Below are positions 25,783 to 56,635 of a DNA stretch of 64,000 bases, piece by piece. A program made the position numbers and the translations under genes. The notes below the pieces were generated by a model. It had not been told where the DNA came from and searched no databases. It was given only the letters and a program-made list of their open reading frames with translations. Origin of the DNA: Patescibacteria group bacterium (lineage in GTDB: Bacteria; Patescibacteriota; Patescibacteriia; Magasanikbacterales; UBA922); the NCBI GenBank assembly GCA_041651535.1, contig JBAZIZ010000003.1, forward strand, positions 19,357-83,356, read 5' to 3'. The first letter of the stretch is position 1. The number at the start of each line of letters is the position of its first letter.

Positions 25783-25937
25783 GCAAAAAAGTTTTTGAAA
25801 AAATATTGTAATTTGCCCCACTCAGGGGCTTTTTTATTCTCTAACTTTTTATTTCCTAAATCTAGAATTTAAAATCTTAAATTTAAAAAAACCTGTTTTT
25901 AAAACAGATTTTTTTATTATAGAATATAAAATTATTT

Positions 25938-34384: not shown

Positions 34385-34540
34385 ATTTTTATACTCTTAT
34401 TGCTAAATATTATGAAGCTATTATATAAAAAATGGAGTTAAATGTCAAATACCTGCACAATTTTAGATTTAAGATTTTAGATTTAGGAATTAAAAAATTA
34501 TTTACTTACTTGTTTGCCTAATTACTTGTCAAATATTATA

Positions 34541-36314: not shown

Positions 36315-37337
36315 ATGAGAAAAAAAGTTTTACCAAAAAAAGCATGGATTTCTTTAACTGGAGTTTGCAACAACCAATGTAAATGGTGTTACAGAAATGG
36401 AAATGAAACTCAAATTTTTATTGATTACGAAAAAGTAAAAGCAAAAATAAAAACTTTTGCTGAAATCGGGATTAAAACCATTACCATTATTGGCGGAGAA
36501 CCCACACTTCATCCAAATTTTAAAGAAATTATAAATGAAATTATTAAATTTGGTATGACTTGTATTATAGTCACAAATGGAAGAAAAAAAATTGAGATAC
36601 CGGAAAAATGGAAGGATAATCCTTTAGTAAAATATGTATTTTCTCTTCATGGCGCAAACGAAGAACATTATTTTAAAAATACTAGTTCTAAAAACGGTTT
36701 TACGGAAATGATAGAAAATGTAACTTATCTTAAAAAAGAAGGGGTCAAACTTTCTGTCAATATAGTCCTTGGGAAGGAAATGATTGATCATCTTGACATC
36801 TTTTACAAATTGATAAACAAATTGTCAATAAAGAAATTGAATTTTACTTACGCAGTTCCTTCGGTTGATGACGAAAATTATGAAGCAATTCCCCTTCGTC
36901 TAGTAGAACTTACAAAAAAAATATATTCTGATTGTACTAAAAATAATATTAAATCTTCTTTTATTTTAAGTTTACCTTGGTGTTTACTTGGTAAAGATGA
37001 TTTGAAATATTTTATCGAAAATAAATTAATAAGTTTCAATTGCCCGGTAAATTATGGGAAAGGATTTTTATTAAAAGAAAATGGTGCTATAGCTCTTTGT
37101 ACGCATCTTTCAAATTATGAAATTTTAAATGCGGCAAAATCTGAAAAAGTTCTTTTAAACGCTAAAAATTTTATAAATTTTTGGAATTCAAAAAAAATAA
37201 AAGAACTCAGAAAGACAGTAAATGTTTACCGTCATGAAAAATGTGTTAAATGCGATTATAGATTTAATTGTAAAGGCGGATGTCCTCTTTGGTGGCAACG
37301 CTTTGACTTTGGTGATATTATAAACAGTCATTATTAG
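36315..37337 (+). CDS. radical SAM/SPASM-domain peptide-modifying enzyme
   Basis: CNNQCKWCY (CX3CX2C) radical-SAM cluster motif. C-terminal CVKCDYRFNCKGGC (CX2CX5CX3C) SPASM motif. GGAG RBS. Confidence 0.8.
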   Translation: MRKKVLPKKAWISLTGVCNNQCKWCYRNGNETQIFIDYEKVKAKIKTFAEIGIKTITIIGGEPTLHPNFKEIINEIIKFGMTCIIVTNGRKKIEIPEKWKDNPLVKYVFSLHGANEEHYFKNTSSKNGFTEMIENVTYLKKEGVKLSVNIVLGKEMIDHLDIFYKLINKLSIKKLNFTYAVPSVDDENYEAIPLRLVELTKKIYSDCTKNNIKSSFILSLPWCLLGKDDLKYFIENKLISFNCPVNYGKGFLLKENGAIALCTHLSNYEILNAAKSEKVLLNAKNFINFWNSKKIKELRKTVNVYRHEKCVKCDYRFNCKGGCPLWWQRFDFGDIINSHY

Positions 37338-37347
37338 GAGGTTAAAA

Positions 37348-37506
37348 ATGACTGCGCAAAAACTTTTCGGCTCTTTGAGAGGAAGCCATATTATTCCTCC
37401 AAAGGGAGAAGAAACAGGGAGAAATTTTAGCTCAGACGGATTTATGTGCAACGGAGATTGCGATGTGGGAGACGAATGTTATTGCGACAATGATCCGGAG
37501 GAGTAG
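37348..37506 (+). CDS. candidate RiPP precursor peptide (52 aa, Cys/Asp-rich C-terminus)
   Basis: AGGAGG RBS 7 nt upstream. MTAQKLFGSLRGSHIIPPKGEETGRNFSSDGFMCNGDCDVGDECYCDNDPEE. Starts 11 nt after the rSAM stop and is followed by a terminator. Not in the ORF track (under 60 aa). Confidence 0.55.
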   Translation: MTAQKLFGSLRGSHIIPPKGEETGRNFSSDGFMCNGDCDVGDECYCDNDPEE

Positions 37507-37516
37507 GAGTTTCGAC

Positions 37517-37560
37517 AGGTGCTTGCACCGCCAGGTTGTTTATTCAACCTGGTTTTTTAT
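37517..37560. terminator. double hairpin (ggtgcttgcacc; ccaggttgtttattcaacctgg) plus T7, closing the rSAM-peptide unit
   Basis: T-run on the plus strand. Convergent with the stop of the minus-strand HExxH gene. Confidence 0.5.
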
Positions 37561-38154
37561 TTTATGCCAAAAAGCAAAAACTGAAATATCAAATTCTTTT
37601 TTAAATAATTTATTAAAAGTATTTATTGTTTTTTTTGAAAGGGCTATTTTGTCTAAAAATGATTTAAATTTTTCTTCTCCAAAAACTACAATTAAACTAT
37701 TTACCATATGAAAACCAAAATTATAAATATAAGCATTATTTTTTTCATAATAAAATTTCAAATTTTTTACCCCTTTAAAATTTGTTTTTTTATTTTGTCC
37801 AGCTAAAAAACAGGCCAAACCTTCATTTAACCACAAAGGTTTTAAATCGTTTATTTTTTCTTTAAAATAAAGATGAACTAATTCGTGTTTTAAAGTACGC
37901 CAGTAATCTTCACGATCTTTATGATTTGATTCTTCTAAAAATTTTTCGTAACATAAAATATGAATGTTACCATCTCTTGCCCAACCAACTAGCCAATCAG
38001 GAGTTTCTTTTTTAAAAAATTTATTTATTTCTTTTCTTGAATTATACAAAAATATTTTAGGCTCTTTTATCTTTACAGAAAAAAAATTTTCAAATTCTTT
38101 TTTTGTTTTTTTAAGTAAATTTTTAGTTTTTAAATCATTAATTTTTAGCTTCAT
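37540..38154 (-). CDS. putative zinc metallopeptidase (HExxH)
   Basis: HELVH with downstream WLNEG (possible third ligand Glu); 204 aa, basic, no signal peptide. Confidence 0.45.
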   Translation of the reverse strand: MKLKINDLKTKNLLKKTKKEFENFFSVKIKEPKIFLYNSRKEINKFFKKETPDWLVGWARDGNIHILCYEKFLEESNHKDREDYWRTLKHELVHLYFKEKINDLKPLWLNEGLACFLAGQNKKTNFKGVKNLKFYYEKNNAYIYNFGFHMVNSLIVVFGEEKFKSFLDKIALSKKTINTFNKLFKKEFDISVFAFWHKIKNQVE

Positions 38155-38170
38155 AAAATTAGCAACTATT

Positions 38171-38340
38171 AAAAATCTTGTTTACCTGCTAATTCTATTT
38201 TTTCTTCATTAGCACATTCATATTTTACTGAGTATGAAAAAGGTTGTGGGGTACAAGCGCAGATAATTTTAGATTTCTGATTCTAGATTTTAGAATTAAA
38301 AATATTATAACACAAAAATTAGATAAAATGAAAATTTAAC
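38171..38340 (-). repeat. truncated remnant of the giant-gene C-terminal cassette plus its upstream promoter element
   Basis: 38176-38258 matches the 5' 80 bp of the cassette (encoding ACTPQPFSYSVKYECANEEKTELAGK) up to the common breakpoint ...gtacaagc|gcagataattttagattt. The extended -10 motif is at 38304-38316. Confidence 0.7.
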
Positions 38341-38481
38341 TTAATTAAGGCAAAAAATAGTCAAATAACTTGACAAAACTGTTAAAAAGTGCTATAATTT
38401 CTTGTTATGAATATTAGGATATTGTATAATATTTATAGCACATTAGATGGATCTTTTAACAATTTATATTGGGAGTTTACC

Positions 38482-39222
38482 ATGAAAAGTCTTACTTTTA
38501 TTGCAGTATTTCTTTCTTTCTTCGCTGTCGCTTGTGGCGGCAAAGAATCTGATTGTTGTATCGTTGTCGATGACGACGAAACAACGGATGAAGTTACCGA
38601 TGAAACTTCGGATGAAACAGCCGATGGGGCAACTGAAGCTGAAATTGATGAGGTGTCTGATGGAGACATCGTTGAAAATGAAAACGAAACTGATGAAGAT
38701 GAAGAAACACTTGATGAAGATTCAGGAGAGGTTACATATCATGAACCTGAGAATCTGGACGAGTGCCAGAATTCAGTTTGTTCTGAGGTATGTGTAGTCG
38801 AGTGGGATCAAATGGGAAAAGATGTAATCTTTTACCTGTTAAATGGAGATAGTATTGAAAAATACTCTGACTGTCCCGTCAGAATCAAACTGGAAATCGG
38901 ATCAAATGACAAATGTTATACTACGGTTATTGAGACTGCGGGCTGTAATGTTACAGCTGGTTTAGACGGACGAAAAGAAGCAAATTCTTCAATGCCTATC
39001 TCTGGTTTACTAACCTACGGAACCGACAAAGTTTACTACGAATTGTCAGAAACAGATGAAACAATTCAGGAAGATGGAGTTTTTAATTACACGAGATGGG
39101 AAAACTGTATTAACACTAATGGAGTAGATCTATGTGAAAAATACGGTTTGGAAAAAGTTCAAATTGAGGGTGAGAGCTTTGGTCTAGCTTCTGAAGAAAA
39201 ATGGGTTGCCATCTCCCAGTAA
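38482..39222 (+). CDS. acidic Cys-rich lipoprotein, paralog C of the cassette-associated family
   Basis: GGGAG RBS. MKSLTFIAVFLSFFAVAC lipobox, D/E/T-rich linker, LDECQNSVCSEVCVVEWDQ motif, C-terminal ...YGLEKVQIEGE. The ORF track starts further upstream; the first ATG with a signal peptide is 38482. Higher GC than the genome. Confidence 0.6.
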   Translation: MKSLTFIAVFLSFFAVACGGKESDCCIVVDDDETTDEVTDETSDETADGATEAEIDEVSDGDIVENENETDEDEETLDEDSGEVTYHEPENLDECQNSVCSEVCVVEWDQMGKDVIFYLLNGDSIEKYSDCPVRIKLEIGSNDKCYTTVIETAGCNVTAGLDGRKEANSSMPISGLLTYGTDKVYYELSETDETIQEDGVFNYTRWENCINTNGVDLCEKYGLEKVQIEGESFGLASEEKWVAISQ

Positions 39223-39239
39223 TTTCACATTACCCAGGT

Positions 39240-39292
39240 TCCGTTTATCTCATTGTAGATAAACACTTTTGAGCCTGGGTTTTCTTTTTTAT
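39240..39292. terminator. long hairpin (acccaggttccgtttatctcattgtagataaac...gagcctgggt) between convergent lipoprotein C and cassette 1
   Basis: Nested inverted repeats followed by ttttctttttt. Confidence 0.45.
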
Positions 39293-39342
39293 AAAAAATA
39301 CTCTATTATCTAGAGTATTTTATTTTTATTTAATATTTTATT

Positions 39343-39730
39343 TTAATCTTCTGTACTTTCAGGCAAAACTACTAGATAACCATCAAAAGCTGTGAAACTT
39401 TTGTTAAAATTATCGTCTATTATCTTACCACATTTATCAGTATCACAATTCCCTTCTCTACACTCTCCATTACAATAATCCCAATTATCAGTTATCTGAA
39501 CTTTTGGTTGATAATAACAATAATAATCATTGTCTAGTAAGTTATAGGTTTTCTTTAAAGTATTTTTTAAATTGGTACAAAGAGTTGTATCAGTACTTGT
39601 TCCACCAAAACAATGTTCTTCTGTAATATCACCTACTTTTTCTTGTTTACCTGCTAATTCTGTTTTTTCTTCATTAGCACATTCATATTTTACTGAGTAT
39701 GAAAAAGGTTGTGGGGTACAAGCGCGGATA
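39343..39730 (-). repeat. orphan C-terminal cassette 1 of the giant protein (variant tail)
   Basis: Encodes ...ACTPQPFSYSVKYECANEEK...KVQITDNW, ~90% identical to the giant C-terminus, then a different 45-aa Cys-rich tail (DYCNGECREGNCDTDKCGKIIDDNFNKSFTAFDGYLVVLPESTED). The ORF-track start is a TTG inside the -10 box, so independent translation is doubtful. Confidence 0.75.
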
Positions 39731-39870
39731 ATTTTAGATTTATGATTCCAGAATTTAGAATTAAAAATATTATAACACAAAAATTCTGTAAAATAAAAAA
39801 GACCCGAGTCAGTTAAGTAATTTCATTTCTGAAAAAACTAACCAACTCGGGTGGGGATGTGGGATTTATT
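39731..39870 (-). promoter_or_regulatory. cassette-associated element: long imperfect hairpin terminator plus extended -10 TTTGTGTTATAAT
   Basis: 139/140 bp shared with 41232-41370 (minus a 7-bp tagaatt unit). Contains acccgagtcggttaag...ctaaccaactcgggt, which forms a stem on the minus strand followed by ttttttatttt, then the promoter 13-mer. Confidence 0.55.
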
Positions 39871-40762
39871 TAGGGAGTGGAACGAAGTCAATATCCGACC
39901 ACCTATAACACGGGCCTTCTATACCTTCAACATATACTGGTTCATCTCCTTCTTCTTCACACCAATTTATTCCATCATTATTGATACAACTTGTGTAATC
40001 TCCGTAGTTGTATTTTTTTTTCCCTTGCCAAGTTTCACCAGTATCAGAAAAGAAAAAGTAAATTAATGTGCCATAATACGGATTATTAAGGTCTTCTTTT
40101 GTCCCCTGAACAGGTATTTTTTCAGACTCAATTTGTGAATAATCCCAAGCTATTTCTGTATGATCTACAAAGTTCGCATAACATATGTTATGCGAAGTTT
40201 CAAGCCAAATATCAAGATAGCTATCTTTACTATCAATTTCTTCTCCATTTTTGGCTAGATTGAACCAAAAAATCCTTTCTTTTGTCTCCTCATCCCACAT
40301 AAGAAGACAAAGCTGAGAACACGGAGAATCTTTACATTCTTCCAGATTCTGCAGCTTTACAAAACTTGGATCAGCTGGGACCTCATAATCTGTACAATAC
40401 AGGTTACTATCCCAAGCTTCTCTACAGTAGAAAACTTCTGGATCCTGTCCAGAATTTTCTCTGCATTTTCTTTCTCCTTGCCAGAAGCCATCGACACAGA
40501 CAAGTATCCACTGTCCATTATCAACAGTAGAGCACATTCTGTCTCCATCAGTACAAACTGGTTCAGTTGTGTCCTCGTCAGTGGACACTGTATCATCTGC
40601 TTCATCAGTTGATTCGACGACATCTTCATCCGGATTTTCATCTATAGACTCATCAGTCTTAGACTCGTTATCCGGAAGGGTTGGTTCTTCTCCACTGCAT
40701 GATACAGCGAAGAAAGAAAGAAACACAATTACAAAGATAATGCATTTCATGGTAATCTCCAT
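39866..40762 (-). CDS. acidic Cys-rich lipoprotein, paralog B
   Basis: MEITMKCIIFVIVFLSFFAVSCSG lipobox; acidic linker near-identical to paralog A; LEECKDSPCSQLCLLMWDE motif; divergent C-terminal domain. Confidence 0.6.
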   Translation of the reverse strand: MEITMKCIIFVIVFLSFFAVSCSGEEPTLPDNESKTDESIDENPDEDVVESTDEADDTVSTDEDTTEPVCTDGDRMCSTVDNGQWILVCVDGFWQGERKCRENSGQDPEVFYCREAWDSNLYCTDYEVPADPSFVKLQNLEECKDSPCSQLCLLMWDEETKERIFWFNLAKNGEEIDSKDSYLDIWLETSHNICYANFVDHTEIAWDYSQIESEKIPVQGTKEDLNNPYYGTLIYFFFSDTGETWQGKKKYNYGDYTSCINNDGINWCEEEGDEPVYVEGIEGPCYRWSDIDFVPLPK

Positions 40763-40858
40763 CTATAAAGTTATATAAATCCCTTGTAAAGAACAATATT
40801 AAATATGATTATTTAACAATATAATATAGCACTTTTTTGCTCTTTTGTCAATATTAAC

Positions 40859-41231
40859 CTAGTTTTCTGTGTTTTCAGGTAAAACTACGAGATATCCATT
40901 GAATTTTGTAAATGATTTGTCATTATCCTTATTACATTCCTTAGGACTTGTTCCATAAAGCCCGTTATTACAATACCCCCAATTATCAGTTATCTGAACT
41001 TTTGGTTGATAATAACAATAATAATCATTGTCTAGTAAGTTATAGGTTTTCTTTAAAGTATTTTTTAAATTGGTACAAAGAGTTGTATCAGTACTTGGTC
41101 CACCAAAACAATGTTCTTCTGTAATATCACCTACTTTTTCTTGTTTACCTGCTAATTCTGTTTTTTCTTCATTAGCACATTCATATTTTACTGAATATAG
41201 GAAAGGTTGTGGAGTACAAGCGCAGATAATT
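40859..41231 (-). repeat. orphan C-terminal cassette 2, an exact copy of the giant gene 3' end
   Basis: 40859-41221 is identical to 42187-42549 (the stop codon and last 121 codons of the giant gene). No in-frame start, because an extra tagaatt unit shifts the upstream TTG/ATG out of frame. Confidence 0.85.
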
Positions 41232-41370
41232 TTAGATTTATGATTCTAGATTTTAGAATTTAGAATTAAAAATATTATAACACAAAAATTCTGTAAAATA
41301 AAAAAGACCCGAGTCGGTTAAGTAATTTCATTTCTGAAAAAACTAACCAACTCGGGTGGGGATGTGGGAT
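41232..41370 (-). promoter_or_regulatory. cassette-associated terminator/promoter element, copy 2
   Basis: Identical to 39731-39870 apart from a tagaatt indel and 1 SNP. Extended -10 motif at 41274-41286. Confidence 0.55.
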
Positions 41371-42090
41371 TTATATTACAAACACAAAATAAAATGATCC
41401 TCCGAAGAAAGTTTCCACACCTTCTATCTCAACGACTTCCAATCCAAATTCTTTACATGTATCACGACCTGCCTGAGCGTCATAACACTCTACATAACCC
41501 TCCATTCTCAATTCTTTTTCTTCTCTAAAAAAGAAGCTGAATTGTCTCTCAGTTCCCAAATAAGAGACATGTTCAAGAGGTATTTTATAGCCTTCGGTAA
41601 TTGCATCTTCTTTTCCAATAAATGAATTTTCTGGAACAGAGAAAAAACATTTTTCAAAATTATCCACAAAAAGTTTAAACTTGAAACTTCTTTGGTCATC
41701 ACAGTTTACGCTATTACTTGTCTTTTTTTCACACCATTTACCGCTATTTGCTCCTTCATCCCACAGAAGGAAACAAATTTCTGAACAAGAAGAATTTTTG
41801 CATTCTTCCAAGCTTTGTAATTCTGTATAGACAATCTCCTGATCATCTATATCAGAATCATTTTCTTCTTCAGATTCAGTATCGATTTCAGTTGTGTCCT
41901 CGTCATTGGACACTGTATCATCTTTTACTTCATCATTTTCTTCGACGACATCTTCGTCTGGATTTTCGTCTATAGACTCATCAGTCTTAGACTCGTTATC
42001 CGTAAGGTTTGGTTCTTCTCCACTGCATGATACAGCGAAGAAAGAAAGAAACACAATTACAAAGATAATGCATTTCATGGTAATCTCCAT
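41371..42090 (-). CDS. acidic Cys-rich lipoprotein, paralog A (immediately downstream of the giant gene)
   Basis: Same lipoprotein signal and acidic linker as paralog B; LEECKNSSCSEICFLLWDE motif; C-terminal ...CKEFGLEVVEIEGVE. Confidence 0.6.
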   Translation of the reverse strand: MEITMKCIIFVIVFLSFFAVSCSGEEPNLTDNESKTDESIDENPDEDVVEENDEVKDDTVSNDEDTTEIDTESEEENDSDIDDQEIVYTELQSLEECKNSSCSEICFLLWDEGANSGKWCEKKTSNSVNCDDQRSFKFKLFVDNFEKCFFSVPENSFIGKEDAITEGYKIPLEHVSYLGTERQFSFFFREEKELRMEGYVECYDAQAGRDTCKEFGLEVVEIEGVETFFGGSFYFVFVI

Positions 42091-42186
42091 CTATAAAGTT
42101 ATATAAATCCCTTGTAAAGAACAATATTAAATATGATTATTTAACAATATAATATAGCACTTTTTTGCTCTTTTGTCAATATTAAC

Positions 42187-45100
42187 CTAGTTTTCTGTGT
42201 TTTCAGGTAAAACTACGAGATATCCATTGAATTTTGTAAATGATTTGTCATTATCCTTATTACATTCCTTAGGACTTGTTCCATAAAGCCCGTTATTACA
42301 ATACCCCCAATTATCAGTTATCTGAACTTTTGGTTGATAATAACAATAATAATCATTGTCTAGTAAGTTATAGGTTTTCTTTAAAGTATTTTTTAAATTG
42401 GTACAAAGAGTTGTATCAGTACTTGGTCCACCAAAACAATGTTCTTCTGTAATATCACCTACTTTTTCTTGTTTACCTGCTAATTCTGTTTTTTCTTCAT
42501 TAGCACATTCATATTTTACTGAATATAGGAAAGGTTGTGGAGTACAAGCACGGGTAGCATCACCAAAGAAATTTTCTTCTGCATTTTTTATACACGAATT
42601 ATTTGCACATTCACTATTTTCTTTACAAGTGATTTGTGTGCCAGAACATCTACCAATTTCGTTTGGTTCATCATCACAATATGGTTTTCTATTTTTAAAC
42701 AAACCTTTTGTACCACTTCCTCCTATCACTTCATCATTTTTTCCAGTATCTAAAATAACTGTTTTTATCGGCATTTGATCATCATCAGCATAAGCGTAAA
42801 AAGATAAATAAGCTTCAAAAGGAGAATTTTTTATAATGATTTTTTTGCCTGTACTATTGTTTACTGAAGTCTCTGTAATATTATCAATACTTAAATTATC
42901 AAAATCTCCTAACACATATTTTTTATTTATTTCATCATATTTTACTCCAAAAATTCGTGGTGAATTTATAGAATAAAGTTTTTCAAAGAAAGTTTGTCCT
43001 GTTCCACTACTCAAATGATCAATTAATGAAGTTCCGGGTGCTTGTTTATCTTTAGATTCATCAAATTTATAATAAGCGGCAGCAAACACATCCATAAAAG
43101 ATGTATTATTTGGAAAAGATGCAGTTATAAATTCATGTTCATTTAATGTAGTAAACTGTTTATATTCTGGATTAATATCAGACGCGGTAAAATCAAGTGC
43201 TTTAAACAAACCATTTGTTTTTGTTGGGATTCCAGAAGTTTCAAAATCATAGTCAATTATTTGGCTTTTATCTATTACTGAAAAATAATAAAATCTATCA
43301 AAATCTATTACTGTTGTTTTATTATTTTGCAAATCCGTCTCTGTTTTAAAAACATCATCTGTTCTTTTTGTTAAAGATCCAAAAGGAGCATTTGAATAAT
43401 TTTTTATTTTTGAAACTGAATCCACTAAAGTTTCTATGTAAATATCAGAATAAGTGGTAGCATTTTTTAAATTTTTAGTTAAAGTTTTATCCAAACCTTT
43501 TTTTCCAGACCACAAAATATCTGTTCGCGGTTTTGTGTTATTATTTAACAAATTATTATCATAAAGTACTCCATATTCAGTACATTTACTATTTAATTCT
43601 ACGATAACTGCAAGACGCATACCATAACTTTCGCCGTCTGAATTATCATGAGCATCTATAAATCTAGATATATAGCCAAGAAAATCTCCATCTTCATTAA
43701 AATCCAAACCAATAGCTAATAAAGTTGCATTTTCTTCTTCATTCAATCTATCTGAATCCCCACGTCCAAAATAAAAAGGATCAGATTGTTTATTAATAGT
43801 ATTTTCTAATGATATATCTTGACAATTATTTTCTGTGCACAGAGAATTTAAAGTGGTTTTAGAATTATTTTGATTTAAAATAGAATCTGAATAAAAATAT
43901 CCAACATATCTTGTTTTAATTTCATTCTTTCCTGTATCGTTATACAATTCATAGGTAAAATTAAAATCACTATTATTTTTAAAGAGAACAGTATTTTCTT
44001 TTTCTAATAAATAAGAAACAAAATTTAAACCCGAATTAGTTGAAGATCCTGAGGCCATACAAAATTTTTCATTATAACCTGTACAATAATTTTTAACAGG
44101 TGCATATAATATTTTGTTTGTGCTTTGTCTTAATTTATTAAAATCAATAGTAAAAGTTTCTGCATCTAAAAGACCTATGGTTCTCCCTTCTGCTCCAGAT
44201 ATATGTTCAATTGGTACAATATGAATTTTTGCTATTTCTTCTTCTTTAATTTTATTTTCTAGTTCACTTATATAAATAAAACTATTATTTAAGTTAGATC
44301 CATTAAAACTTTTAAAATTAGGGGATAAAAATAAATTATAAAGATTAAATTTACTTGCTTTTTCTCCATCTCCACTATCATTACCATCATGATAAAAACC
44401 TAAAGTTTCAATTTTTGTTCCAGAATTATATGAATTATATGAAGAAGAAGTTATTTCTAAATTACTAGAATTAAAACGTATTGGGTGAATTAAAGTACCC
44501 ACATCACCATATTCGCCTGAATCTTGACCTACAGCTGGAGCAAATGATTTTACTATTCCATTTGTTAAAACTGTATAATAAGGATCATTTACGGCATCAA
44601 ATCTTAATATTCTAATATTTTTTAAATCAATTTGTCTATTCTCTTTATAAGTATCAATATTTTTTGCCCATTCATTTAACATGATATATTGTTGTTTTTC
44701 ATCGTTACTATTAATAACTTCTTTATATTTATCTGAAACTACGCCACCTCCGCCAGTGTTTTCTTCTTCTGCTTCAAAATACAGACCGGCTACTTCTTGT
44801 CTATTAAAATAATTATAAATTTTAAAGCTACATTCTCCTGAATTATAGTCATCATTACAATCGGCTGTAAAAACTGGTCTATTAAAAGCTAAATTATATT
44901 GATTATTTAATATAGTATCATTTATAGTTTGTCCATTAATCACAGTTCCTAAACCATATTCAGGAGTTTGTCCTTGTTCAGTACTATTTAAACAGAAAAC
45001 TTGGCCAAAATCATTTGAATCGGAATTCCCTTCAGTTGGATTACCTTCTGGGTTATAACCTGCTTCTGGGTTATAATTATATAAATCCATTTGTGAAATA

Positions 45101-48100
45101 CTACGGTCAGAATAATACCAAGTCAAACAAGGATAATAAGTTTTATTACCAGCTTTTTCGCCACGACTTTTATCATATTCCATACAAACACCAGTCACTC
45201 CATAATATGTTCCCTGTTGTTCTATTTTATTACATACTCCTCCTTCACCACAATCTGTATCAATAAAACAGACATCACCTGTTTTTTCACCAATTCCAGA
45301 ACAAATTCCTTGTGGAATAAATGCGTAATCAGCATTACTTTGTTTAAAATCTAGAGGCCAGTAATCAATAGTACCATCTTTATATTCTACTTTTGTATAA
45401 AGACAACTGCCAAATCCAACTGAATCATCTGGATTAGTAAAAATATTTGAACTATATTGATAATAATTTGCATTATCATATTTTGATTTTATTTTTGTCC
45501 ATTCAGTTCTATTAAAATCAGTGTCGTCTAAATTAAAATAATATCTGCCACAACTTACTTCACTTGAATCTTCATCATCTTCATTTAAATTAAAACAATC
45601 AATATATTTATCTGAATCAAAATTAGCTATTAAACGAATATCAAAAGGTGAATCTTCTTCAGGGAAAGTTTTACAAGATTCTGCATATAAATTTTCTTTT
45701 ATTTTATCTCCAGATAAAACAGCTATTAAATCTTGTTCATTTGTTACTCCTACAAAACTTGTTTCATTTTTTCCATCTACTGGTAAAATACATTTTCCAT
45801 CGTAACACACTCCAGAGGAACCATCTTTTCCAGTACAAGCAGAAAAATCAGGTTTTGTGATTGATCCAGATCCAAATAAAGCTGGTATTTTACAACTATT
45901 ATTATCAGATTCATAAATCAAATAAGCACGGGATGCATTACCATCTTGCAAATAAATAGTTTTATAACCATCCAAATTTCTTTTATTCAAAAAAGCATAA
46001 CCAGTATAATCTTTGTCATACCAACTTGGATAAGCAAATTCACTAATTCTTTCTACATATTTATTTTTATCCAAAATCTTTTCGTCATCATCAGGTTTAT
46101 TTTGTAATTTATAATTAGCACAAACTTCCACTTTGTTTCCATCACTATCTTCTTCAATAGTTTTACTAGTACATTCTAAATATTGTTCACATTCTCGATC
46201 TATTTTTACTTTTATGAGCAAATTTGATTGATTGTTTGTGTCTGAAACTGGAGAAACTAGATTATAATCATTTTCTCGGCTATTTTTATAAGTAGAAGTT
46301 GCATTATATAATTTATTTGGATATTCTTCTCTATCTAATAAAATACAACCTTGTTCTTGACTAACCATGCCACCACAACTAGCAGTCTGAGAAGTTAATT
46401 TATCATTATATAAATTATAGTATTCTTTTGGTTGATTATCAGAATTCAAATCAGCCCAATCTAAAAATTTTGTACAACCATTATTTTCTTCATCACATAA
46501 ACCGACTTTACCTTGATAACCAGCCGAGCCATTTGAAGGTAAATCACCGCAAGGCAATTCGCCTATCTTGTCACAAAAACCTTTTTCACCACATTGTGAA
46601 TCTTCTGTACAATACATATTTGAAGGATAAGAACAATAGCCAATAGCATCCACAACAACACACATCGCGCCTTCAGGACAGTCCCCGCTGTTATAACATA
46701 ATCCTGGTGGATCTAATTTACAAGAACCTACCCCTGACATATACCAAGCTGGGTCATCATTACCTACTTTTTTATATTCACACAAAGTATTTCCAGCTAA
46801 AACTGGATCTTTGAAATAAGAAATTAGATTATTTGCTGAGTAACTACCACAACCAACCAAGCTATCGTTACACAAAATTTCACTATATAATTCTGGTTTA
46901 TTTAATAAAAATACATCACCAAAAACATAAGAATCGTCATAATTTTTTCCAGCTTTGATTTGTGATTCTTTTCCCATTTCTGTACAACCAATGTCATCAC
47001 TATTACAAATATGATCATTTTTTAAAGTCAAATATACAGGTTCAGAAGTCGGTGGAATTACAACAGTAGAAGTAACTATTTCTAAATTTTTTGTATACAA
47101 CCCGGCAATATTTAAAGTGTAAAAATCATAACTATCTGATATTTTTATTTTTTTAGCAAACACTGGATTTTTTATAAATCCAAAATTAAATTCAGAAACT
47201 GAACTGATTATGTTATTATCTTCTGAATCTAAAACACAACCTGTAGAATTATTACAAAATAAATTATAAACAGCATAATATTCATCTCCATAATCATCGT
47301 TTCTATTATAAGTATCTTGAAGTTTTGCACAACCAATCGCATCTTCCCGACATAATTTTGCAAAACCAGTAAGATTAATAACACTGCCATCATTTTCTGT
47401 ATCACTATTTACTGTATAAGAACTACAACCTAAATATCTACCTGGAAATCCATCAAGCGGAGTATTATCACAAACTTCTGGAACATCATAACCTAAATTT
47501 GTTTTCCAAGAATCTTTGATAACAGCTAATCGATCATCTGCAGTATCTCCTACTTTATTTAAACGAATATTATCTAAGAAAAATATTTTATTAGTAACAT
47601 TTGATTCAAAAAATAATTGAACTGAAGCAGTGTTAATTCCATTTACTAAAATTGGTCCTAATTTATATTCTTGCCATTCATCATTTATTGACAAAGGACG
47701 CAAAGCACTAGTCAAATTATCAGTAGTTAAATATGTTTCATTTCCAGATTGAGAAAAATAAACATTTAAATTTTGGATATCACCTTTTGCCCAAAAAGTA
47801 AGTTCATACCATTTGTCATCATTTAAATTATCAAACAAAATTCCAGCGTTAAAATTATAATAAGCTGTACCACCAATAACTCGAAGAGAATGTCCACCAA
47901 CATAAGTTGATTCAGTTTTTATATCAACATCTCCCTGACTACAAGATCCACTTGATCCATTTTCACACCAATTTTCTTTTAAAATACTTAGAGCATTTTC
48001 ATCATCGCCTGCTGGTTCAAAATCATTTTCAAAAGTTTTATGTAAATTATTTCCTGTATTACCAATATATAATCGACAACCATCTGCTGAAGCTGGACAA

Positions 48101-51100
48101 GATCTAGCTTCTTCTGGAATAGAATAATATTCACAAGCTCCTTTATCATTTCCTTGATCAACATAAAAACCATTATCATAACAACGTAGACAATTATTGT
48201 TTTGCCATTTTCCACCTTTTTGTAAACAAATATTTTGATTATTTATATCATCATCTTCATACATGTTCAAATCAGTTTTACGATAAAGAGAACATTGATC
48301 AGAAACAGTAATTGTTTTATTTAAACTGCGATAAAAAATATTTCCAGCATCATCATAAAGTGCTGTACAATTATATTTATCATAATCTTCCACTGCTTCA
48401 CCATTTATATATTTATTATATTTTTCTCGATTACAAGTATTGTAACTTTCATTCAAAGAAATACTACTATCATTTTCATAAGCTGGGGAACCAACTTCAA
48501 AATGAGATTTAATTTCTGCTGAAACAGAAGTAAGATTTTCAATAAAAATTTCATCTTCTGAACTTATTTTTTTCAAATTATGTTTTTTCAAAACATAACC
48601 AGTTTTATCACTACCTTCCCAAGAATAAAATACAGATGCATTTTCACCATCAGGTAATTCACATTTTTTTGTGTCTGAAAAATAAACCAAGCTATTGGCT
48701 CCATTTCCAACTTCATCAACTTTTGTGAATTCAGAACAACCAGCATAAGTTGCTTGGCAAGTTTCAGCAGTACTTGGAATAAAATATAAAGGGAAAACAG
48801 AATCTTCAAAAGCTGAAGCATTTTGTTTGAATGTATCATAACCCACACAAGTTTCTGGACACCAATTTTGTAATTCAACTTTTCCACCTATTTCTTCTCC
48901 ACTATTTACTTCAGTATAACTTGCACAACCAACTTCATCTGGTAAACAAACACCAGCAAAATCTTCACATTCTTTTGACCTATCAGCTAAATAAAGTAAA
49001 TCAGCTTTTGATTTTGGCCATTCGATTAGCGAAGTAGTTTTATCTACATCATAACAAGCTAAATAATCAGGAGCTTTTTTTAAATGAATTTGATCTTGAT
49101 AAGTACTAGATGTAGTTTCTAAAGTTTCTGGATTATAACTATATTCTTTTTTCTCCCAATTAAATAATTCGCAACCATTAGCATCAGAAGAACAAGAGTA
49201 TTGCTCAGCTTTAGAATTTAAAAACAAATTTTGATTTCCTCCGAGAGACGCACCTTTTATATCATTGTTCAAATAAAAACTATTTATCCAATTTCCAGAA
49301 TCATTTTTATTTAAACTGTAAGCTTGGCAACCAACTGCATCAGCATTACAATCTCCGTATTCTAAAGTACGTGATAAATAAGAAGCTTCATCGCCAGTTA
49401 AATTATTAGAAAAAGTCTTACAAGTATTATAAATTGGTTCACAAGAATCTCCATAAAATTTCCAAGTATTTTTTTCTTGCAAACAATAACCGTATTTTTC
49501 ACATTTGCCATTATTATCTTCTACTACGCAAGAATCATAATCAATAACTTGTTCTTGGCGAGTATTTGTACCATCCAAAATTTCTGAACTGTAGGTTTTT
49601 AATTTTATTCTAGCTTCTGGAGCTTTGATTATCCAATTTGGATTTATAAGACCATAATAATTACCTTCAGTATAATAAGCATTTACAACTGTTTCCAAAG
49701 TTGGGTTTCCTAATTCTGTAGCTTTTTCGGCAACGATTTCAAAACCAAGAGGAATTATTCTAGCTTTACGCATTTTTTGTAAATTTGAATAACATAATCC
49801 TTTTGTATAACAATCTTTTGTTTGATTTTCATTTGAATATTCAGAATAAAATATTTGATTACCATTAATTATTCCTTCATCAATCGCTTGTTTAATCGTC
49901 ATTGGATTACCAGTATTGTATCTATTAATTACTGTTTGCCAACTGGAATCCATAACACAATTATCATTAGCAGGTTCATCTGGACAACTGACAAATTGTG
50001 AAACATAATCGTATTTTTCCAAACTCAAATTTGGTAAATCTTTTATCAAATAAGAGTAAGCATTTTCAACTGCTTTGCGATTATAATTTAAAACACTGGC
50101 GTAAGGATTTGTTACTGATTCTTTCCCTGATTCTTTGCTAGTTGGGAATAAACCATCTTGTAAAATATTTTGTGCTAAAGTTGAAACAAAAGTATTAGCA
50201 AAAGTAGAAATTGCTGTTGGAATAATTTGCCAACCGCTCACTGCATACATTCCTGCCATTTGAGTAGCACTCATTTCACCCTGTTGTTTAGCTCCAACTG
50301 CTTCTGATTCAGTTTTAACTGTTTGGGCTGGGGTTTTTATTTCTCCAGAAATCACATCTTTTACAGCTTTAAAACCATCACCTTCGGCTCTTTCAGCATT
50401 TGCTGATTCAGTTGCTTTAGCGTTCAATGAATCGATATTACTTTTAGCAACTAAAACTGTTCCTAGACCACCTTGAGTTACATCCAGATTAGCGTTGAAA
50501 ATTTCAGCAGCTGAATATTTATCTTGAACATTATCCCATCCACTTTTCATTTCATTCCAAGAACAAGATGGCTGTGGACCTTTTTCACTGCCTGAACCAT
50601 ATTCATTACTATAAATATTGCTTAAACCAACTTGTAAACTTAATTGAAAATTTAAATCTGGTGGAGTACAAAAATTCATCCCCAATACTCCTTTTCCAAA
50701 ATCAGCAATGGCTGACGCTGCAGAATCCAAAGCTACATTAGCAAAATAATCTCCTGGACTTTCTTGAAAAACAGCTGGTTTTTTTCCAACTGCTGAGTCT
50801 GCTAGATAAGTTGCAGCATCATAAGCTAATTTTCTAGTAAAATAAGAAGCAGCATTTATCAAAGAACCCAAAGCAGAACTTAATAAAGTATCTAAAATTT
50901 GATCTTTTATGTCCGCTGTTTTTTCTGGCAAACTTTCAATAACTGAAACGGGAAAACCTGCTTTTGCAATTTGTGGTCTAAACATGCCAATTGCAAAAAA
51001 ATTAAAAAATAAAAAAATACTGAGCAAAATCGACAAGGAAATTTTTTTAGCTCGATTTTTTTTAAACATAATTTTGTAGTTAGTATTTATCAAAAAATAA

Positions 51101-51111
51101 AAATTTACCAT
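42187..51111 (-). CDS. giant (2974-aa) secreted Cys/Asn/Tyr/Asp-rich surface protein
   Basis: Single uninterrupted ORF. Probable start at M15 (51069), giving MFKKNRAKK-hydrophobic-AKAG signal-like N-terminus. Numerous Cys-rich modules. No recognisable Rhs/YD, PAAR or enzymatic motifs. Confidence 0.8.
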   Translation of the reverse strand: MVNFYFLINTNYKIMFKKNRAKKISLSILLSIFLFFNFFAIGMFRPQIAKAGFPVSVIESLPEKTADIKDQILDTLLSSALGSLINAASYFTRKLAYDAATYLADSAVGKKPAVFQESPGDYFANVALDSAASAIADFGKGVLGMNFCTPPDLNFQLSLQVGLSNIYSNEYGSGSEKGPQPSCSWNEMKSGWDNVQDKYSAAEIFNANLDVTQGGLGTVLVAKSNIDSLNAKATESANAERAEGDGFKAVKDVISGEIKTPAQTVKTESEAVGAKQQGEMSATQMAGMYAVSGWQIIPTAISTFANTFVSTLAQNILQDGLFPTSKESGKESVTNPYASVLNYNRKAVENAYSYLIKDLPNLSLEKYDYVSQFVSCPDEPANDNCVMDSSWQTVINRYNTGNPMTIKQAIDEGIINGNQIFYSEYSNENQTKDCYTKGLCYSNLQKMRKARIIPLGFEIVAEKATELGNPTLETVVNAYYTEGNYYGLINPNWIIKAPEARIKLKTYSSEILDGTNTRQEQVIDYDSCVVEDNNGKCEKYGYCLQEKNTWKFYGDSCEPIYNTCKTFSNNLTGDEASYLSRTLEYGDCNADAVGCQAYSLNKNDSGNWINSFYLNNDIKGASLGGNQNLFLNSKAEQYSCSSDANGCELFNWEKKEYSYNPETLETTSSTYQDQIHLKKAPDYLACYDVDKTTSLIEWPKSKADLLYLADRSKECEDFAGVCLPDEVGCASYTEVNSGEEIGGKVELQNWCPETCVGYDTFKQNASAFEDSVFPLYFIPSTAETCQATYAGCSEFTKVDEVGNGANSLVYFSDTKKCELPDGENASVFYSWEGSDKTGYVLKKHNLKKISSEDEIFIENLTSVSAEIKSHFEVGSPAYENDSSISLNESYNTCNREKYNKYINGEAVEDYDKYNCTALYDDAGNIFYRSLNKTITVSDQCSLYRKTDLNMYEDDDINNQNICLQKGGKWQNNNCLRCYDNGFYVDQGNDKGACEYYSIPEEARSCPASADGCRLYIGNTGNNLHKTFENDFEPAGDDENALSILKENWCENGSSGSCSQGDVDIKTESTYVGGHSLRVIGGTAYYNFNAGILFDNLNDDKWYELTFWAKGDIQNLNVYFSQSGNETYLTTDNLTSALRPLSINDEWQEYKLGPILVNGINTASVQLFFESNVTNKIFFLDNIRLNKVGDTADDRLAVIKDSWKTNLGYDVPEVCDNTPLDGFPGRYLGCSSYTVNSDTENDGSVINLTGFAKLCREDAIGCAKLQDTYNRNDDYGDEYYAVYNLFCNNSTGCVLDSEDNNIISSVSEFNFGFIKNPVFAKKIKISDSYDFYTLNIAGLYTKNLEIVTSTVVIPPTSEPVYLTLKNDHICNSDDIGCTEMGKESQIKAGKNYDDSYVFGDVFLLNKPELYSEILCNDSLVGCGSYSANNLISYFKDPVLAGNTLCEYKKVGNDDPAWYMSGVGSCKLDPPGLCYNSGDCPEGAMCVVVDAIGYCSYPSNMYCTEDSQCGEKGFCDKIGELPCGDLPSNGSAGYQGKVGLCDEENNGCTKFLDWADLNSDNQPKEYYNLYNDKLTSQTASCGGMVSQEQGCILLDREEYPNKLYNATSTYKNSRENDYNLVSPVSDTNNQSNLLIKVKIDRECEQYLECTSKTIEEDSDGNKVEVCANYKLQNKPDDDEKILDKNKYVERISEFAYPSWYDKDYTGYAFLNKRNLDGYKTIYLQDGNASRAYLIYESDNNSCKIPALFGSGSITKPDFSACTGKDGSSGVCYDGKCILPVDGKNETSFVGVTNEQDLIAVLSGDKIKENLYAESCKTFPEEDSPFDIRLIANFDSDKYIDCFNLNEDDEDSSEVSCGRYYFNLDDTDFNRTEWTKIKSKYDNANYYQYSSNIFTNPDDSVGFGSCLYTKVEYKDGTIDYWPLDFKQSNADYAFIPQGICSGIGEKTGDVCFIDTDCGEGGVCNKIEQQGTYYGVTGVCMEYDKSRGEKAGNKTYYPCLTWYYSDRSISQMDLYNYNPEAGYNPEGNPTEGNSDSNDFGQVFCLNSTEQGQTPEYGLGTVINGQTINDTILNNQYNLAFNRPVFTADCNDDYNSGECSFKIYNYFNRQEVAGLYFEAEEENTGGGGVVSDKYKEVINSNDEKQQYIMLNEWAKNIDTYKENRQIDLKNIRILRFDAVNDPYYTVLTNGIVKSFAPAVGQDSGEYGDVGTLIHPIRFNSSNLEITSSSYNSYNSGTKIETLGFYHDGNDSGDGEKASKFNLYNLFLSPNFKSFNGSNLNNSFIYISELENKIKEEEIAKIHIVPIEHISGAEGRTIGLLDAETFTIDFNKLRQSTNKILYAPVKNYCTGYNEKFCMASGSSTNSGLNFVSYLLEKENTVLFKNNSDFNFTYELYNDTGKNEIKTRYVGYFYSDSILNQNNSKTTLNSLCTENNCQDISLENTINKQSDPFYFGRGDSDRLNEEENATLLAIGLDFNEDGDFLGYISRFIDAHDNSDGESYGMRLAVIVELNSKCTEYGVLYDNNLLNNNTKPRTDILWSGKKGLDKTLTKNLKNATTYSDIYIETLVDSVSKIKNYSNAPFGSLTKRTDDVFKTETDLQNNKTTVIDFDRFYYFSVIDKSQIIDYDFETSGIPTKTNGLFKALDFTASDINPEYKQFTTLNEHEFITASFPNNTSFMDVFAAAYYKFDESKDKQAPGTSLIDHLSSGTGQTFFEKLYSINSPRIFGVKYDEINKKYVLGDFDNLSIDNITETSVNNSTGKKIIIKNSPFEAYLSFYAYADDDQMPIKTVILDTGKNDEVIGGSGTKGLFKNRKPYCDDEPNEIGRCSGTQITCKENSECANNSCIKNAEENFFGDATRACTPQPFLYSVKYECANEEKTELAGKQEKVGDITEEHCFGGPSTDTTLCTNLKNTLKKTYNLLDNDYYCYYQPKVQITDNWGYCNNGLYGTSPKECNKDNDKSFTKFNGYLVVLPENTEN

Positions 51112-52910: not shown

Positions 52911-53023
52911 AAAATAATTTCAAAATTATGATTTATGATTTCTGATTTTAAAATTAATTCTAAAATCTAGAATCTAAAATCTTAAATTAATTATTATAAA
53001 TTCGATTAATATTATTTAAAAAC

Positions 53024-56420: not shown

Positions 56421-56493
56421 GCGCCATTAGCTCAGTCGGTAGAGCAGTTGCCTCTTAAGCAAACGGTCGCAGGTTCAAATCCTGCATGGCGCA
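56421..56493 (+). tRNA. tRNA-Lys (anticodon CUU)
   Basis: Manual cloverleaf: acceptor GCGCCAT/ATGGCGC, D arm GCTC-AGTCGGTA-GAGC, anticodon loop CUCUUAA, T arm GCAGG-TTCAAAT-CCTGC, discriminator A, no encoded CCA. Confidence 0.75.
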
Positions 56494-56632: not shown

Positions 56633-56635
56633 CAA

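What the first reader, a model, noticed from the sequence alone, without database searches (positions are those of the whole stretch)
40681..41221. 541-bp block of perfect identity (40681-41221 equals 42009-42549) inside an otherwise diverged tandem duplication
The duplicated unit is [giant 3' end, intergenic region, lipoprotein gene]. It is clearly older than this block: the lipoprotein bodies are under 40% identical, and SNPs appear immediately outside the block (for example 42003 and 42008). Yet the giant-gene tail, the 98-bp intergenic region and the first 27 codons of the lipoprotein gene are 100% identical between the copies. This sharp identity step is what recent gene conversion between the expressed locus and cassette 2 would leave. 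It supports active recombination in this array, not a static relic.
Basis: seen in the sequence. Interest (0 to 1): 0.6.

Follow-up and report, generated by a model that had tools for sequence, protein, structure and literature searches.

The report
Recombining cassette array behind giant gene
In an uncultured Patescibacteria genome, a conserved 3,000-residue surface-protein gene is followed by stored partial copies of its own 3' end, each joined to a variable lipoprotein gene, and the 541-base perfect repeat is most likely the newest trace of DNA exchange between the working gene and one stored copy.

Summary
Window 40681-41221 equals 42009-42549 exactly, and no other exact repeat of 30 nt or more exists outside this array. 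Everything lies on the minus strand: giant gene, promoter, lipoprotein 1, terminator, second promoter and leader, a promoterless 121-codon copy of the giant gene's end, lipoprotein 2, a third copy with a different end, a convergent lipoprotein 3, and a truncated fourth copy.

The lipoprotein bodies are old. Their orthologues in other lineages are 66-72% identical, against about 31% for paralogues within the window. The spacers are nearly identical within a genome, and the point where the partial copies begin differs between lineages, which is concerted evolution. A related strain's giant gene (P0100) ends with the cassette-3 version, so cassettes and the expressed gene do exchange.

There are two caveats. 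The upper edge of the block is simply where homology ends, not the end of a conversion tract. In an independent MEGAHIT assembly the block is a single 541-bp contig, and neighbouring contigs stop exactly k=141 into it. Perfect identity could therefore be partly an assembly product, and only reads can settle that.

The architecture resembles orphan cdiA-CT/cdiI modules and pilE/pilS cassettes, but it belongs to neither family.

The parts
42187..51111 (-). Giant gene (2974 aa; NCBI WC414_02025). It is the expressed copy, with an N-terminal signal/TM segment and many cysteines.
   Evidence: ORF. About 80 full-length homologues of 2,600-3,700 aa occur in Ca. Magasanikbacteria and relatives, with conserved upstream synteny. 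Pfam gives only a weak CBM_4_9 hit.
42009..42549 (-). Block copy B: last 120 codons and stop of the giant gene, lipoprotein promoter and 5' UTR, and the signal-peptide codons of lipoprotein 1.
   Evidence: Exact identity with 40681-41221. Equals the 541-bp contig L003.
40681..41221 (-). Block copy A: promoterless, start-less copy of the giant-gene tail (cassette 2), plus the promoter, 5' UTR and signal-peptide codons of lipoprotein 2.
   Evidence: In frame, a TAG lies 9 codons upstream of the junction, and there is no ATG or Shine-Dalgarno sequence (read).
41371..42090 (-). Lipoprotein 1 (WC414_02020). The likely start is at 42078 (MKCIIF...FAVSC lipobox). It has an acidic linker and a Cys-containing body.
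   Evidence: Its orthologue follows a tail fragment in L004, with 66% body identity.
42151..42179 (-). Promoter of lipoprotein 1 (TTGACA-17-TATATT with TG). An identical copy at 40823-40851 serves lipoprotein 2.
   Evidence: These are among the three best promoter matches in the region, 11/12 with an extended -10. They are conserved in L004, L005, L006, L009 and L012.
41222..41370 (-). Spacer TL1: lipoprotein terminator hairpin, a second extended -10 promoter (TGTGTTATAAT), and a heptad-periodic AT-rich leader that ends at the junction with tail copy 2.
   Evidence: Hairpin -30 kcal/mol, z = -7.8. TL1 against TL2 (39724-39865): 3 mismatches and a 7-nt indel. In the related genome L012 the same terminator, promoter and leader follow the single lipoprotein, with no tail fragment after them.
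39866..40762 (-). Lipoprotein 2 (WC414_02015). The likely start is at 40750. The body carries an extra Cys-rich insert.
   Evidence: Orthologues are P0003 (72% body identity) and the L012 275-aa protein.
40570..40680 (-). Graded zone below the block (acidic linker). It is about 90% identical to 41898-42008, and the sequences become unalignable below it.
39343..39723 (-). Tail copy 3 (cassette 3). The first 255 nt are 97% identical to the block. After the 33-mer it encodes a different Cys-rich loop and ending (…NWDYCNGECREGNCDTDKCGKIIDDNFNKSFTAFDGYLVVLPESTED).
   Evidence: dN/dS against its orthologue in L005 is 0.144/0.639. The same ending closes a giant gene in another strain, P0100.
40967..40999 (-). 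33-mer GTTCAGATAACTGATAATTGGGGGTATTGTAAT (VQITDNWGYCN), the boundary between the conserved and variable parts of the tail. Other copies are at 42295-42327 and 39469-39501 (the latter with 2 changes).
   Evidence: Identical in the window, L005, L006, L007, L009 and L011; one change in L004. It uses the rare codons CAG (7% of Gln) and GGG (5% of Gly). Structural variants diverge just 3' of it.
38407..39222 (+). Lipoprotein 3 (WC414_02005), convergent with the array. The likely start is at 38482. Its promoter lies at 38370-38398.
   Evidence: The promoter scores 12/12. The same convergent arrangement and paired terminators occur in L005 and L011.
38176..38258 (-). Tail copy 4, truncated to 83 nt. 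It is preceded by the second promoter and leader (about 38259-38330) and followed by a 204-aa peptidase-MA-like gene (37540-38154).
   Evidence: It has 1 mismatch against tail 3 and 6 against the block.

Best explanation
The block is a real two-copy repeat inside a recombining array on the minus strand. The ancestral state was a giant surface-protein gene, one lipoprotein gene with its own promoter, a terminator, and the promoter and leader of the next gene. A tandem duplication began inside the giant gene's last domain and ended at that leader. It created units of [3' fragment of the giant gene, promoter, lipoprotein, terminator, leader]. The fragments have no promoter-proximal start codon and cover only part of a domain, so they act as stored alternative 3' ends. 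The lipoprotein genes are all independently expressed. Homologous recombination (gene conversion or unequal crossover) between the conserved stretches keeps the spacers nearly identical within a genome. The variable loop of the tail, the acidic linker and the lipoprotein body stay old and divergent, and they reassort. The 541-nt block is the most recent such event, between the giant gene's own tail and cassette 2. It covers the whole stretch the two share: from the duplication junction, where homology stops, to the lipoprotein linker, where homology decays. Shown: the anatomy, the age of the bodies, lineage-specific junctions, mosaicism, and use of a cassette-type ending in another strain's giant gene. 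Inferred: the type of recombination, its direction, that it is recent, and that the two copies are truly 100% identical in the cells.
For: Exact identity, with neighbouring spacers 2-3% diverged. The anatomy comes from sequence, promoter scan and terminator folds. A single-unit state without a tail fragment exists in L012, whose giant is 55% identical. Bodies are orthologous across lineages at 66-72%, against about 31% for paralogues. Fragments begin at a different position in each lineage: FYAYADD in L004, ACTPQPF in the window, VQITDNW in L005/6/9/11. Within a lineage all fragments begin at the same place. Mosaics occur: P0003 against P0088 at 96% N-terminus and 40% body; L006 against L009 with alternating 100% and divergent segments. 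L005 against L006/L007 are 100% identical for about 1.66 kb and then unrelated, starting just after the 33-mer. Fragments keep an open frame to the native stop, and tail 3 against L005 fragA gives pN 0.13 and pS 0.43. P0100 is a giant-gene 3' end from another NCBI assembly that carries the cassette-3 ending. Across the whole protein family the segment between VQxxDNWGWCN and YKGxIIVIP is hypervariable. In an AF2 model (pLDDT 79) it lies between two strands.
Against: Perfect identity is not independently verified. The block equals one collapsed unitig in a MEGAHIT assembly of the same population, and flanking contigs stop exactly k into it. A tract that reaches within 8 nt of the homology limit is unusual for simple double-strand-break repair and needs heteroduplex correction up to the edge. 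No within-population switching has been observed, because all the evidence compares assemblies. The array holds only two or three cassettes per genome. The lineages are very sparsely sampled: 15 lipoprotein representatives among 1.84 billion proteins.
Confidence: 0.65

Rival explanations
1. Assembly product. The two tails are similar but not identical, or the lipo1 and lipo2 units belong to different co-existing strains. A graph-based assembler popped SNP bubbles and traversed one 541-bp unitig twice, which made perfect identity and possibly the order of units.
For: L003 is a stand-alone 541-bp contig equal to the block. L001 and L002 end exactly 141 nt (= k) inside it. Related loci are also broken into 0.8-4 kb contigs at these repeats.
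Against: L001 proves that reads join lipo1, terminator, leader and at least 141 nt of tail, so a tail copy does follow lipo1. The block has only two exits (lipo1, lipo2) and two entries, so the tandem path is the only one that uses every edge once. Copies would need to be about 95% identical or more to be merged, which is still a marked step against unalignable bodies. The same patchwork of 100% and divergent segments appears in an unrelated JGI sample.
Confidence: 0.2
2. Recent whole-unit tandem duplication followed by replacement of one lipoprotein body, and its terminator region, with DNA from another strain. Under this reading the identity is a leftover of the duplication, not a conversion tract.
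For: Identity reaches exactly to the duplication junction, as a fresh duplicate would. Bodies do get swapped behind identical 5' modules in related populations, as in P0003 against P0088. A lipo1-type body is the gene next to a tail in L004.
Against: It needs two events, with crossovers placed at the linker and within a few nt of the junction. TL1 differs from TL2 up to 3 nt before the junction. The junction itself is shared with tails 3 and 4, which are 3% and 7% diverged from the block, so it is old.
Confidence: 0.12
3. Purifying selection alone keeps the promoter, 5' UTR, signal peptide and tail identical, with no recombination.
For: The promoter, the 20-nt 5' UTR element GTTCTTTACAAGGGATTTAT and the tail motifs are conserved across lineages.
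Against: Selection cannot hold 541 nt at 100%, including synonymous sites and an untranslated fragment, when orthologous tails differ at pS 0.45-0.55 and sister spacers differ by 2-3%.
Confidence: 0.02

Closest known systems
Orphan cdiA-CT/cdiI and rhs-CT/rhsI modules downstream of CdiA/Rhs genes (Poole et al. 2011, PMC3150448)
   Same: A very large exported protein has a conserved body and a variable C-terminus that starts at a conserved motif. Directly downstream lie tandem 3' gene fragments without their own start, each followed by a small gene. Each fragment keeps a patch of homology to the main gene. Orphan endings are found fused to the full-length gene in other strains (abstract read; here P0100).
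   Different: The variable part here is a 25-40-residue Cys loop followed by a conserved terminal strand, not a toxin domain, and Pfam finds nothing. The partner genes encode secreted lipoproteins with their own strong promoters, not cytoplasmic immunity proteins. Loop type and lipoprotein type do not co-vary. The host is a Patescibacterium with no CdiB or Rhs features.
Neisseria pilE/pilS and Borrelia vlsE/vls gene-conversion systems (own knowledge; vls summaries seen)
   Same: There is one expressed gene plus adjacent promoterless partial copies that lack the 5' part. The variable segment is bracketed by short conserved sequences, here the 33-mer and the GYLVVLPEN/3' flank. Sequence moves between cassette and expression site.
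   Different: There are only 2-3 cassettes per genome, and one is identical to the expressed copy. No high-frequency segmental switching has been shown. No G4 or 17-bp-repeat element was seen. Each cassette is linked to an expressed lipoprotein gene. The organism is environmental, not a vertebrate pathogen.
Mycoplasma and relapsing-fever Borrelia variable lipoprotein families with conserved 5' ends (vlp/vsa; vmp with upstream and downstream homology sequences) (own knowledge)
   Same: These are arrays of lipoprotein genes that share near-identical promoter, 5' UTR and signal-peptide regions while the mature bodies diverge. Conserved flanks mediate recombination.
   Different: Here every lipoprotein gene keeps a full promoter, so there is no single expression site for them. 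The conserved flank includes a piece of the upstream giant gene.
Concerted evolution of tandem duplicates by gene conversion or unequal crossover (general)
   Same: Repeats are more alike within a genome than between related genomes, with patchwork tracts of 100% identity.
   Different: Homogenisation is confined to the spacers, while three interleaved modules (loop, linker, body) stay ancient and polymorphic.

Membership tests
Polymorphic toxin loci with orphan CT/immunity modules (CdiA, Rhs) | Large exported protein whose variable C-terminus begins at a conserved demarcation motif | tested here: met
   About 60 of 80 homologues share ...VQ(V/I)xDNWG(W/Y)CN, then a hypervariable 25-60 aa, then a conserved (W/F)TxYKGxIIV(I/V)P ending.
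Polymorphic toxin loci with orphan CT/immunity modules (CdiA, Rhs) | The variable C-terminus is an autonomous toxin domain | tested here: not met
   The variable part is a 25-40-residue Cys loop between two strands of a larger domain. There is no Pfam domain and no PDB fold match.
Polymorphic toxin loci with orphan CT/immunity modules (CdiA, Rhs) | Each CT is followed by a cognate, co-varying immunity gene | tested here: not met
   The downstream genes encode signal-peptide lipoproteins. The same loop pairs with two bodies (window units 1 and 2), and two loops pair with one body (L006, L009).
Polymorphic toxin loci with orphan CT/immunity modules (CdiA, Rhs) | Start-less 3' fragments in tandem downstream, found fused to full-length genes in other strains | tested here: met
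   Window tails 2-4; fragments in L004, L005, L006 and L009. P0100 is the giant 3' end with the cassette-3 ending.
Gene-conversion antigenic variation (pilE/pilS, vlsE/vls type) | One expression site plus promoterless partial copies with conserved flanks around a variable segment | tested here: met
   The flanks are the 33-mer and the 3' end/promoter region.
Gene-conversion antigenic variation (pilE/pilS, vlsE/vls type) | Frequent non-reciprocal, segmental transfer from cassettes into the expression site within a clonal population | not testable with these tools
   No reads or time series are available. Only differences between assemblies were seen.
Gene-conversion antigenic variation (pilE/pilS, vlsE/vls type) | A sizeable repertoire of diverse silent cassettes | tested here: inconclusive
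   The window has 3 fragments (one identical to the gene, one alternative, one truncated). At least 3 loop types occur in JGI sample Ga0075122. Assemblies are fragmented.
Concerted evolution of tandem repeats | Repeat units more similar within a genome than orthologous units between genomes, with lineage-specific shared features | tested here: met
   Window spacers are 97-100% identical, against about 73-80% to L004/L005. The junction position is fixed within each lineage and differs between lineages.

The most novel reading that the evidence does not exclude
A sub-lineage of Magasanikbacteria-like Patescibacteria may have a dedicated cassette system. It would swap the hypervariable C-terminal loop of a conserved, roughly 3,000-residue surface protein, and reshuffle the adjacent lipoprotein repertoire. 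The swap would work by homologous recombination at short DNA-level conserved sites, namely the 33-mer with its rare codons, the 5' UTR element and the terminator-leader. That would be a pilS- or orphan-CT-like surface-variation mechanism in episymbiotic CPR bacteria, perhaps tuning host or phage recognition.
Probability: 0.35. Interest if true: 0.7.

Novelty: new variant of a known kind. Interest (0 to 1): 0.5.

Why it matters
CPR/Patescibacteria are thought to live attached to other microbes, yet little is known about how their surface proteins diversify. This locus links a family-wide conserved giant surface protein to stored alternative endings, and shows that one stored ending is in use in a sister strain. 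It gives a concrete, testable case of recombination-driven surface variation outside pathogens. It is also a practical warning: such arrays break or collapse in short-read assemblies, so they are probably under-reported.

Tried and rejected
Pfam searches of the giant protein, the three lipoproteins and the 145-aa tail ORF gave nothing beyond a sub-threshold CBM_4_9 hit.

An Rfam search of 37000-43000 at E<=1 found no family for the leader or 5' UTR.

A scan of genome contigs with the 33-mer pattern gave no hits. A scan with the 20-nt 5' UTR element gave one chance match inside a Rieske-type gene of an Ignavibacteria MAG (L019). The GTDB representatives therefore lack these lineages.

A scan of metagenome contigs gave only three contigs, all from one sample.

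A Foldseek search of the AF2 model of the giant C-terminal domain against PDB gave no match with E below 1. A fold-based functional assignment was dropped.

I considered site-specific inversion as the origin of the convergent lipo3. I rejected it as a recent event because the same convergent layout and paired terminators are conserved in L005 and L011.

I considered independent translation of the fragments. In the L005 lineage they begin with ATG, but none has a Shine-Dalgarno sequence while the lipoprotein genes do. The window fragment starts mid-domain. This remains unlikely but is not excluded.

I considered strict DNA-level selection on the 33-mer. The case is weakened because two lineages without an observed array (L012 and L014; the L014 contig ends 132 nt after the giant gene) have 4 and 2 synonymous changes in it.

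Literature searches for Patescibacteria or Magasanikbacteria with gene conversion, cassettes or antigenic variation found no prior description.

Full report
**Observation**

Window 40681-41221 is identical, base for base, to 42009-42549 at offset 1328. About 110 nt of roughly 90% identity follow (10 mismatches and 6 gap columns in 114), and then the sequences cannot be aligned. Above the block, identity drops to random at 41222/42550. Outside the array the window has no exact repeat of 30 nt or more on either strand.

**Anatomy**

All features lie on the minus strand. In order they are:
- The giant gene, 51111 to 42187 (2974 aa).
- A near-consensus promoter (TTGACA-17-TATATT with TG) and a 5' UTR.
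- Lipoprotein 1 (likely start 42078; MKCIIF...FAVSC lipobox, acidic linker, Cys-containing body).
- A strong terminator hairpin (-30 kcal/mol, z = -7.8).
- A second extended -10 promoter (TGTGTTATAAT) and a heptad-periodic AT-rich leader.
- At 41221, a copy of the last 120 codons and stop of the giant gene. It has no ATG or Shine-Dalgarno sequence, and an in-frame TAG lies 9 codons upstream.
- The same promoter, followed by lipoprotein 2.
- Terminator, promoter and leader again.
- Tail copy 3 (39723 to 39343). It is 97% identical for 255 nt and then encodes a different Cys-rich loop and ending.
- Two convergent terminators and lipoprotein 3 on the plus strand.
- Promoter and leader again, followed by an 83-nt truncated tail copy 4.
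- An unrelated 204-aa gene.

The three lipoprotein promoters are the three best sigma-70 matches in the region. The lipoproteins are therefore expressed genes, not silent cassettes. Only the giant-gene fragments are silent.

**What the two edges of the block are**

The upper edge is the duplication junction. On the cassette side the sequence upstream is the leader, and on the gene side it is giant-gene coding sequence. It marks the limit of homology, not the end of a tract. The same junction is shared by tails 3 and 4, which differ from the block by 8/255 and 6/83, so the junction is old. The lower edge lies in the lipoprotein linker and is graded.

**Source and assembly**

The locus is WC414_02000-02025 of an NCBI/JGI 'Patescibacteria group bacterium' MAG, on a 159-kb contig. 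An independent MEGAHIT (k141) assembly, ENA ERZ27247363, holds three relevant contigs:
- L001 equals window 42149-41081.
- L002, a 67-kb contig, starts at 40821 and matches 10,956 of 10,956 nt.
- L003 is a 541-bp contig equal to the block.

Each flanking contig ends exactly 141 nt inside the block. This proves that all four junctions exist in reads, and that a tail copy follows lipo1. It also shows the block is one collapsed graph unit. An assembler that traverses it twice yields identical copies by construction, and bubble-popping could erase a few true SNPs.

**The duplication is ancient and the spacers evolve in concert**

Related contigs were recovered: L004 (Logan), L005 (GCA_964583125.1), L006/L010, L009 and L011 (JGI Ga0075122), L007 (a second JGI sample), L008, and L012-L014.

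Lipoprotein bodies are orthologous across lineages:

| Window gene | Orthologue | Body identity |
|---|---|---|
| lipo1 | L004 downstream gene | 66% |
| lipo2 | P0003 | 72% |
| lipo3 | P0086 | 67% |

Window paralogues are only 30-33% identical to one another. Yet the point where the giant-gene fragments begin differs between lineages. It is at FYAYADD (about 195 codons from the end) in L004, at ACTPQPF (121 codons) in the window, and at VQITDNW (44-54 codons) in L005, L006, L009 and L011. Wherever several fragments were recovered (the window and the L005 group) they begin at the same place; L004 yielded only one. Window spacers are 97-100% identical to each other but only about 73-80% identical to those of other lineages. 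Old bodies with lineage-specific, homogenised spacers are the signature of concerted evolution. L012, whose giant is 55% identical, has the presumed ancestral single unit: giant, one lipo2-type lipoprotein, terminator, promoter and leader, with no tail fragment.

**Direct signs of exchange**

1. L005, L006 and L007 come from three samples. They are 100% identical for about 1.66 kb, through the giant tail, P0003, terminator, promoter, leader and 33-mer. Five nt after the 33-mer they become unrelated. L005 and L011 continue into one loop type and a convergent lipoprotein. L006 and L007 continue into another loop, which in L006 is followed by a direct lipoprotein (L007 ends within the loop).
2. 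P0003 and P0088 share a 96%-identical N-terminal module but have 40%-identical bodies. The window's lipo1 and lipo2 show the same pattern, 72% and 31%.
3. L006 and L009 alternate between 100%-identical and divergent segments.
4. P0100 is a 248-aa product from a 2185-bp NCBI contig. It matches the window giant protein at 121 of 121 residues up to the junction, and then matches cassette 3 at 124 of 126 residues, including the alternative loop and ending. P0089, a lipo3-type C-terminus, is also recorded on an NCBI contig of 2185 bp, probably the same one (this is an inference). A chimeric join is unlikely, because the gene and cassette 3 share only about 8-20 nt after the junction before the diagnostic differences begin.

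A cassette-type ending is therefore in use in a sister strain.

**Are the fragments maintained?**

Every fragment seen keeps an open frame to the native stop. Tail 3 against its L005 orthologue gives pN 0.13 and pS 0.43 over 52 codons, similar to the lipoprotein genes.

Across about 60 homologues of the giant protein, the segment between VQxxDNWG(W/Y)CN and the terminal YKGxIIV(I/V)P motif is hypervariable in length and sequence. In an AF2 model of the last 211 residues (pLDDT 79) it connects strands 165-170 and 202-204. The window fragment starts at residue 92 of that domain, so it cannot fold alone. The model has no PDB fold match.

**The 33-mer**

GTTCAGATAACTGATAATTGGGGGTATTGTAAT marks the start of the variable part. 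It is identical in the window and in L005, L006, L007, L009 and L011, with one change in L004. Synonymous divergence elsewhere is pS 0.45-0.55, and the 33-mer contains the rare codons CAG (7%) and GGG (5%). Two lineages without an observed array (L012 and L014; the L014 contig ends 132 nt after the giant gene) have 4 and 2 synonymous changes in it. This is suggestive of a DNA-level role as a homology patch, but it is not proof.

**Mechanism**

The best reading (confidence 0.65) is that the block is the latest homogenisation event in an array maintained by homologous recombination. The event would be a gene conversion or a conversion-associated crossover between the giant gene's tail and cassette 2, and it spans all the homology the two share.

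The rivals are:
- Assembly collapse that inflates identity or mixes strains (0.2).
- A recent whole-unit duplication followed by replacement of one body (0.12).
- Purifying selection alone (0.02).

The direction of transfer and the enzymology are unknown. recA lies next to the array in L011, which is probably coincidental.

**Comparison with known systems**

The layout is closest to orphan cdiA-CT/cdiI and rhs-CT/rhsI modules (PMC3150448) and to pilE/pilS or vlsE/vls cassettes. It fails two defining tests of the toxin family: it has no toxin domain and no cognate cytoplasmic immunity gene. High-frequency switching, which defines antigenic variation systems, cannot be tested here.

The giant protein is a conserved Magasanikbacteria-type family with fixed upstream synteny: RNase III, NusB, L32, Sua5, DUF4015, KsgA, a roughly 235-aa protein, then the giant gene. 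Distant members have a single convergent lipoprotein gene and no repeats. The lipoprotein family is tiny, with 15 representatives among 1.84 billion proteins. No prior description was found in the held literature.

**Verdict**

The locus is a new variant of a known kind of recombining cassette locus, of moderate interest. The key claim of perfect identity awaits read-level verification.

Noticed in passing
window 4026-4116, 25858-25883, 34459-34499, 52916-52989, 56512-56550; also 38265-38302, 39730-39767, 41228-41279; L012 15580-15660; L009 375-420: An AT-rich motif with 7-nt periodicity (…AATCTAAAATCTAGAATCATAAATC…) recurs in several intergenic regions, sometimes as back-to-back inverted copies. 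It forms the 'leader' after each lipoprotein terminator. It gives 10 matches against 0.28 expected. Its function is unknown; it could be a promoter-associated or curved-DNA element.
   Followed up: partly
window 36315-37337 (+) and 37348-37506 (+): A radical SAM gene with a C-terminal Cys cluster is followed directly by a 52-aa ORF ending in a Cys/Asp-rich stretch (…FMCNGDCDVGDECYCDNDPEE). This may be a RiPP precursor and its maturase.
   Followed up: no
window 42295-42327, 40967-40999, 39469-39501; L005 830-862 and 2021-2053: The 33-mer at the conserved/variable boundary of the giant tail is identical at all synonymous sites across lineages that have arrays, despite the rare codons CAG and GGG. 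It carries 2-4 synonymous changes in the two lineages without an observed array.
   Followed up: partly
window 42107-42126 and 40779-40798; L004 921-940, L005 1025-1044, L009 627-646, L012 14567-14586: A 20-nt element in the lipoprotein 5' UTR, GTTCTTTACAAGGGATTTAT, is invariant in every lineage examined although the surrounding UTR varies. It may be a regulatory site. It has no Rfam match.
   Followed up: partly
L009 285-355; L012 15540-15570; L004 222-250: Between the second promoter and the leader, related loci carry short tandem repeats of differing unit and number: (GTAAGCA)n in L009, and AAAGTCA/AAAGTCG or AAAGTAA units elsewhere. These are candidates for slippage-based variation.
   Followed up: no
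L017 17336-17833 (-); L015 16964-17299 (-): In distant Magasanikbacteria the giant gene is followed by a single convergent lipoprotein gene that looks markedly more GC-rich than the surrounding AT-rich genome (judged from its Arg/Ala/Gly/Pro-rich ORF translations; GC was not measured). The window array is also the most GC-rich stretch locally, 0.34 against about 0.28.
   Followed up: no
L014 14498-14629: In the P0008 lineage the sequence right after the giant gene's stop has neither the lipoprotein promoter nor the UTR. JGI labels the giant protein 'IS1 family transposase'. This may be an insertion or a mis-annotation.
   Followed up: no
window 40569-40778 (+), 41894-42106 (+), 38433-38669 (-): Ser-rich ORFs of 69-78 aa lie antisense to the acidic linkers of the three lipoprotein genes. 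They are mirror-image low-complexity artefacts, not genes.
   Followed up: yes
window 56421-56494 and 56561-56633 (+): tRNA-Lys(CTT) and tRNA-Arg(TCG) are separated by a copy of the heptad-periodic intergenic motif.
   Followed up: no
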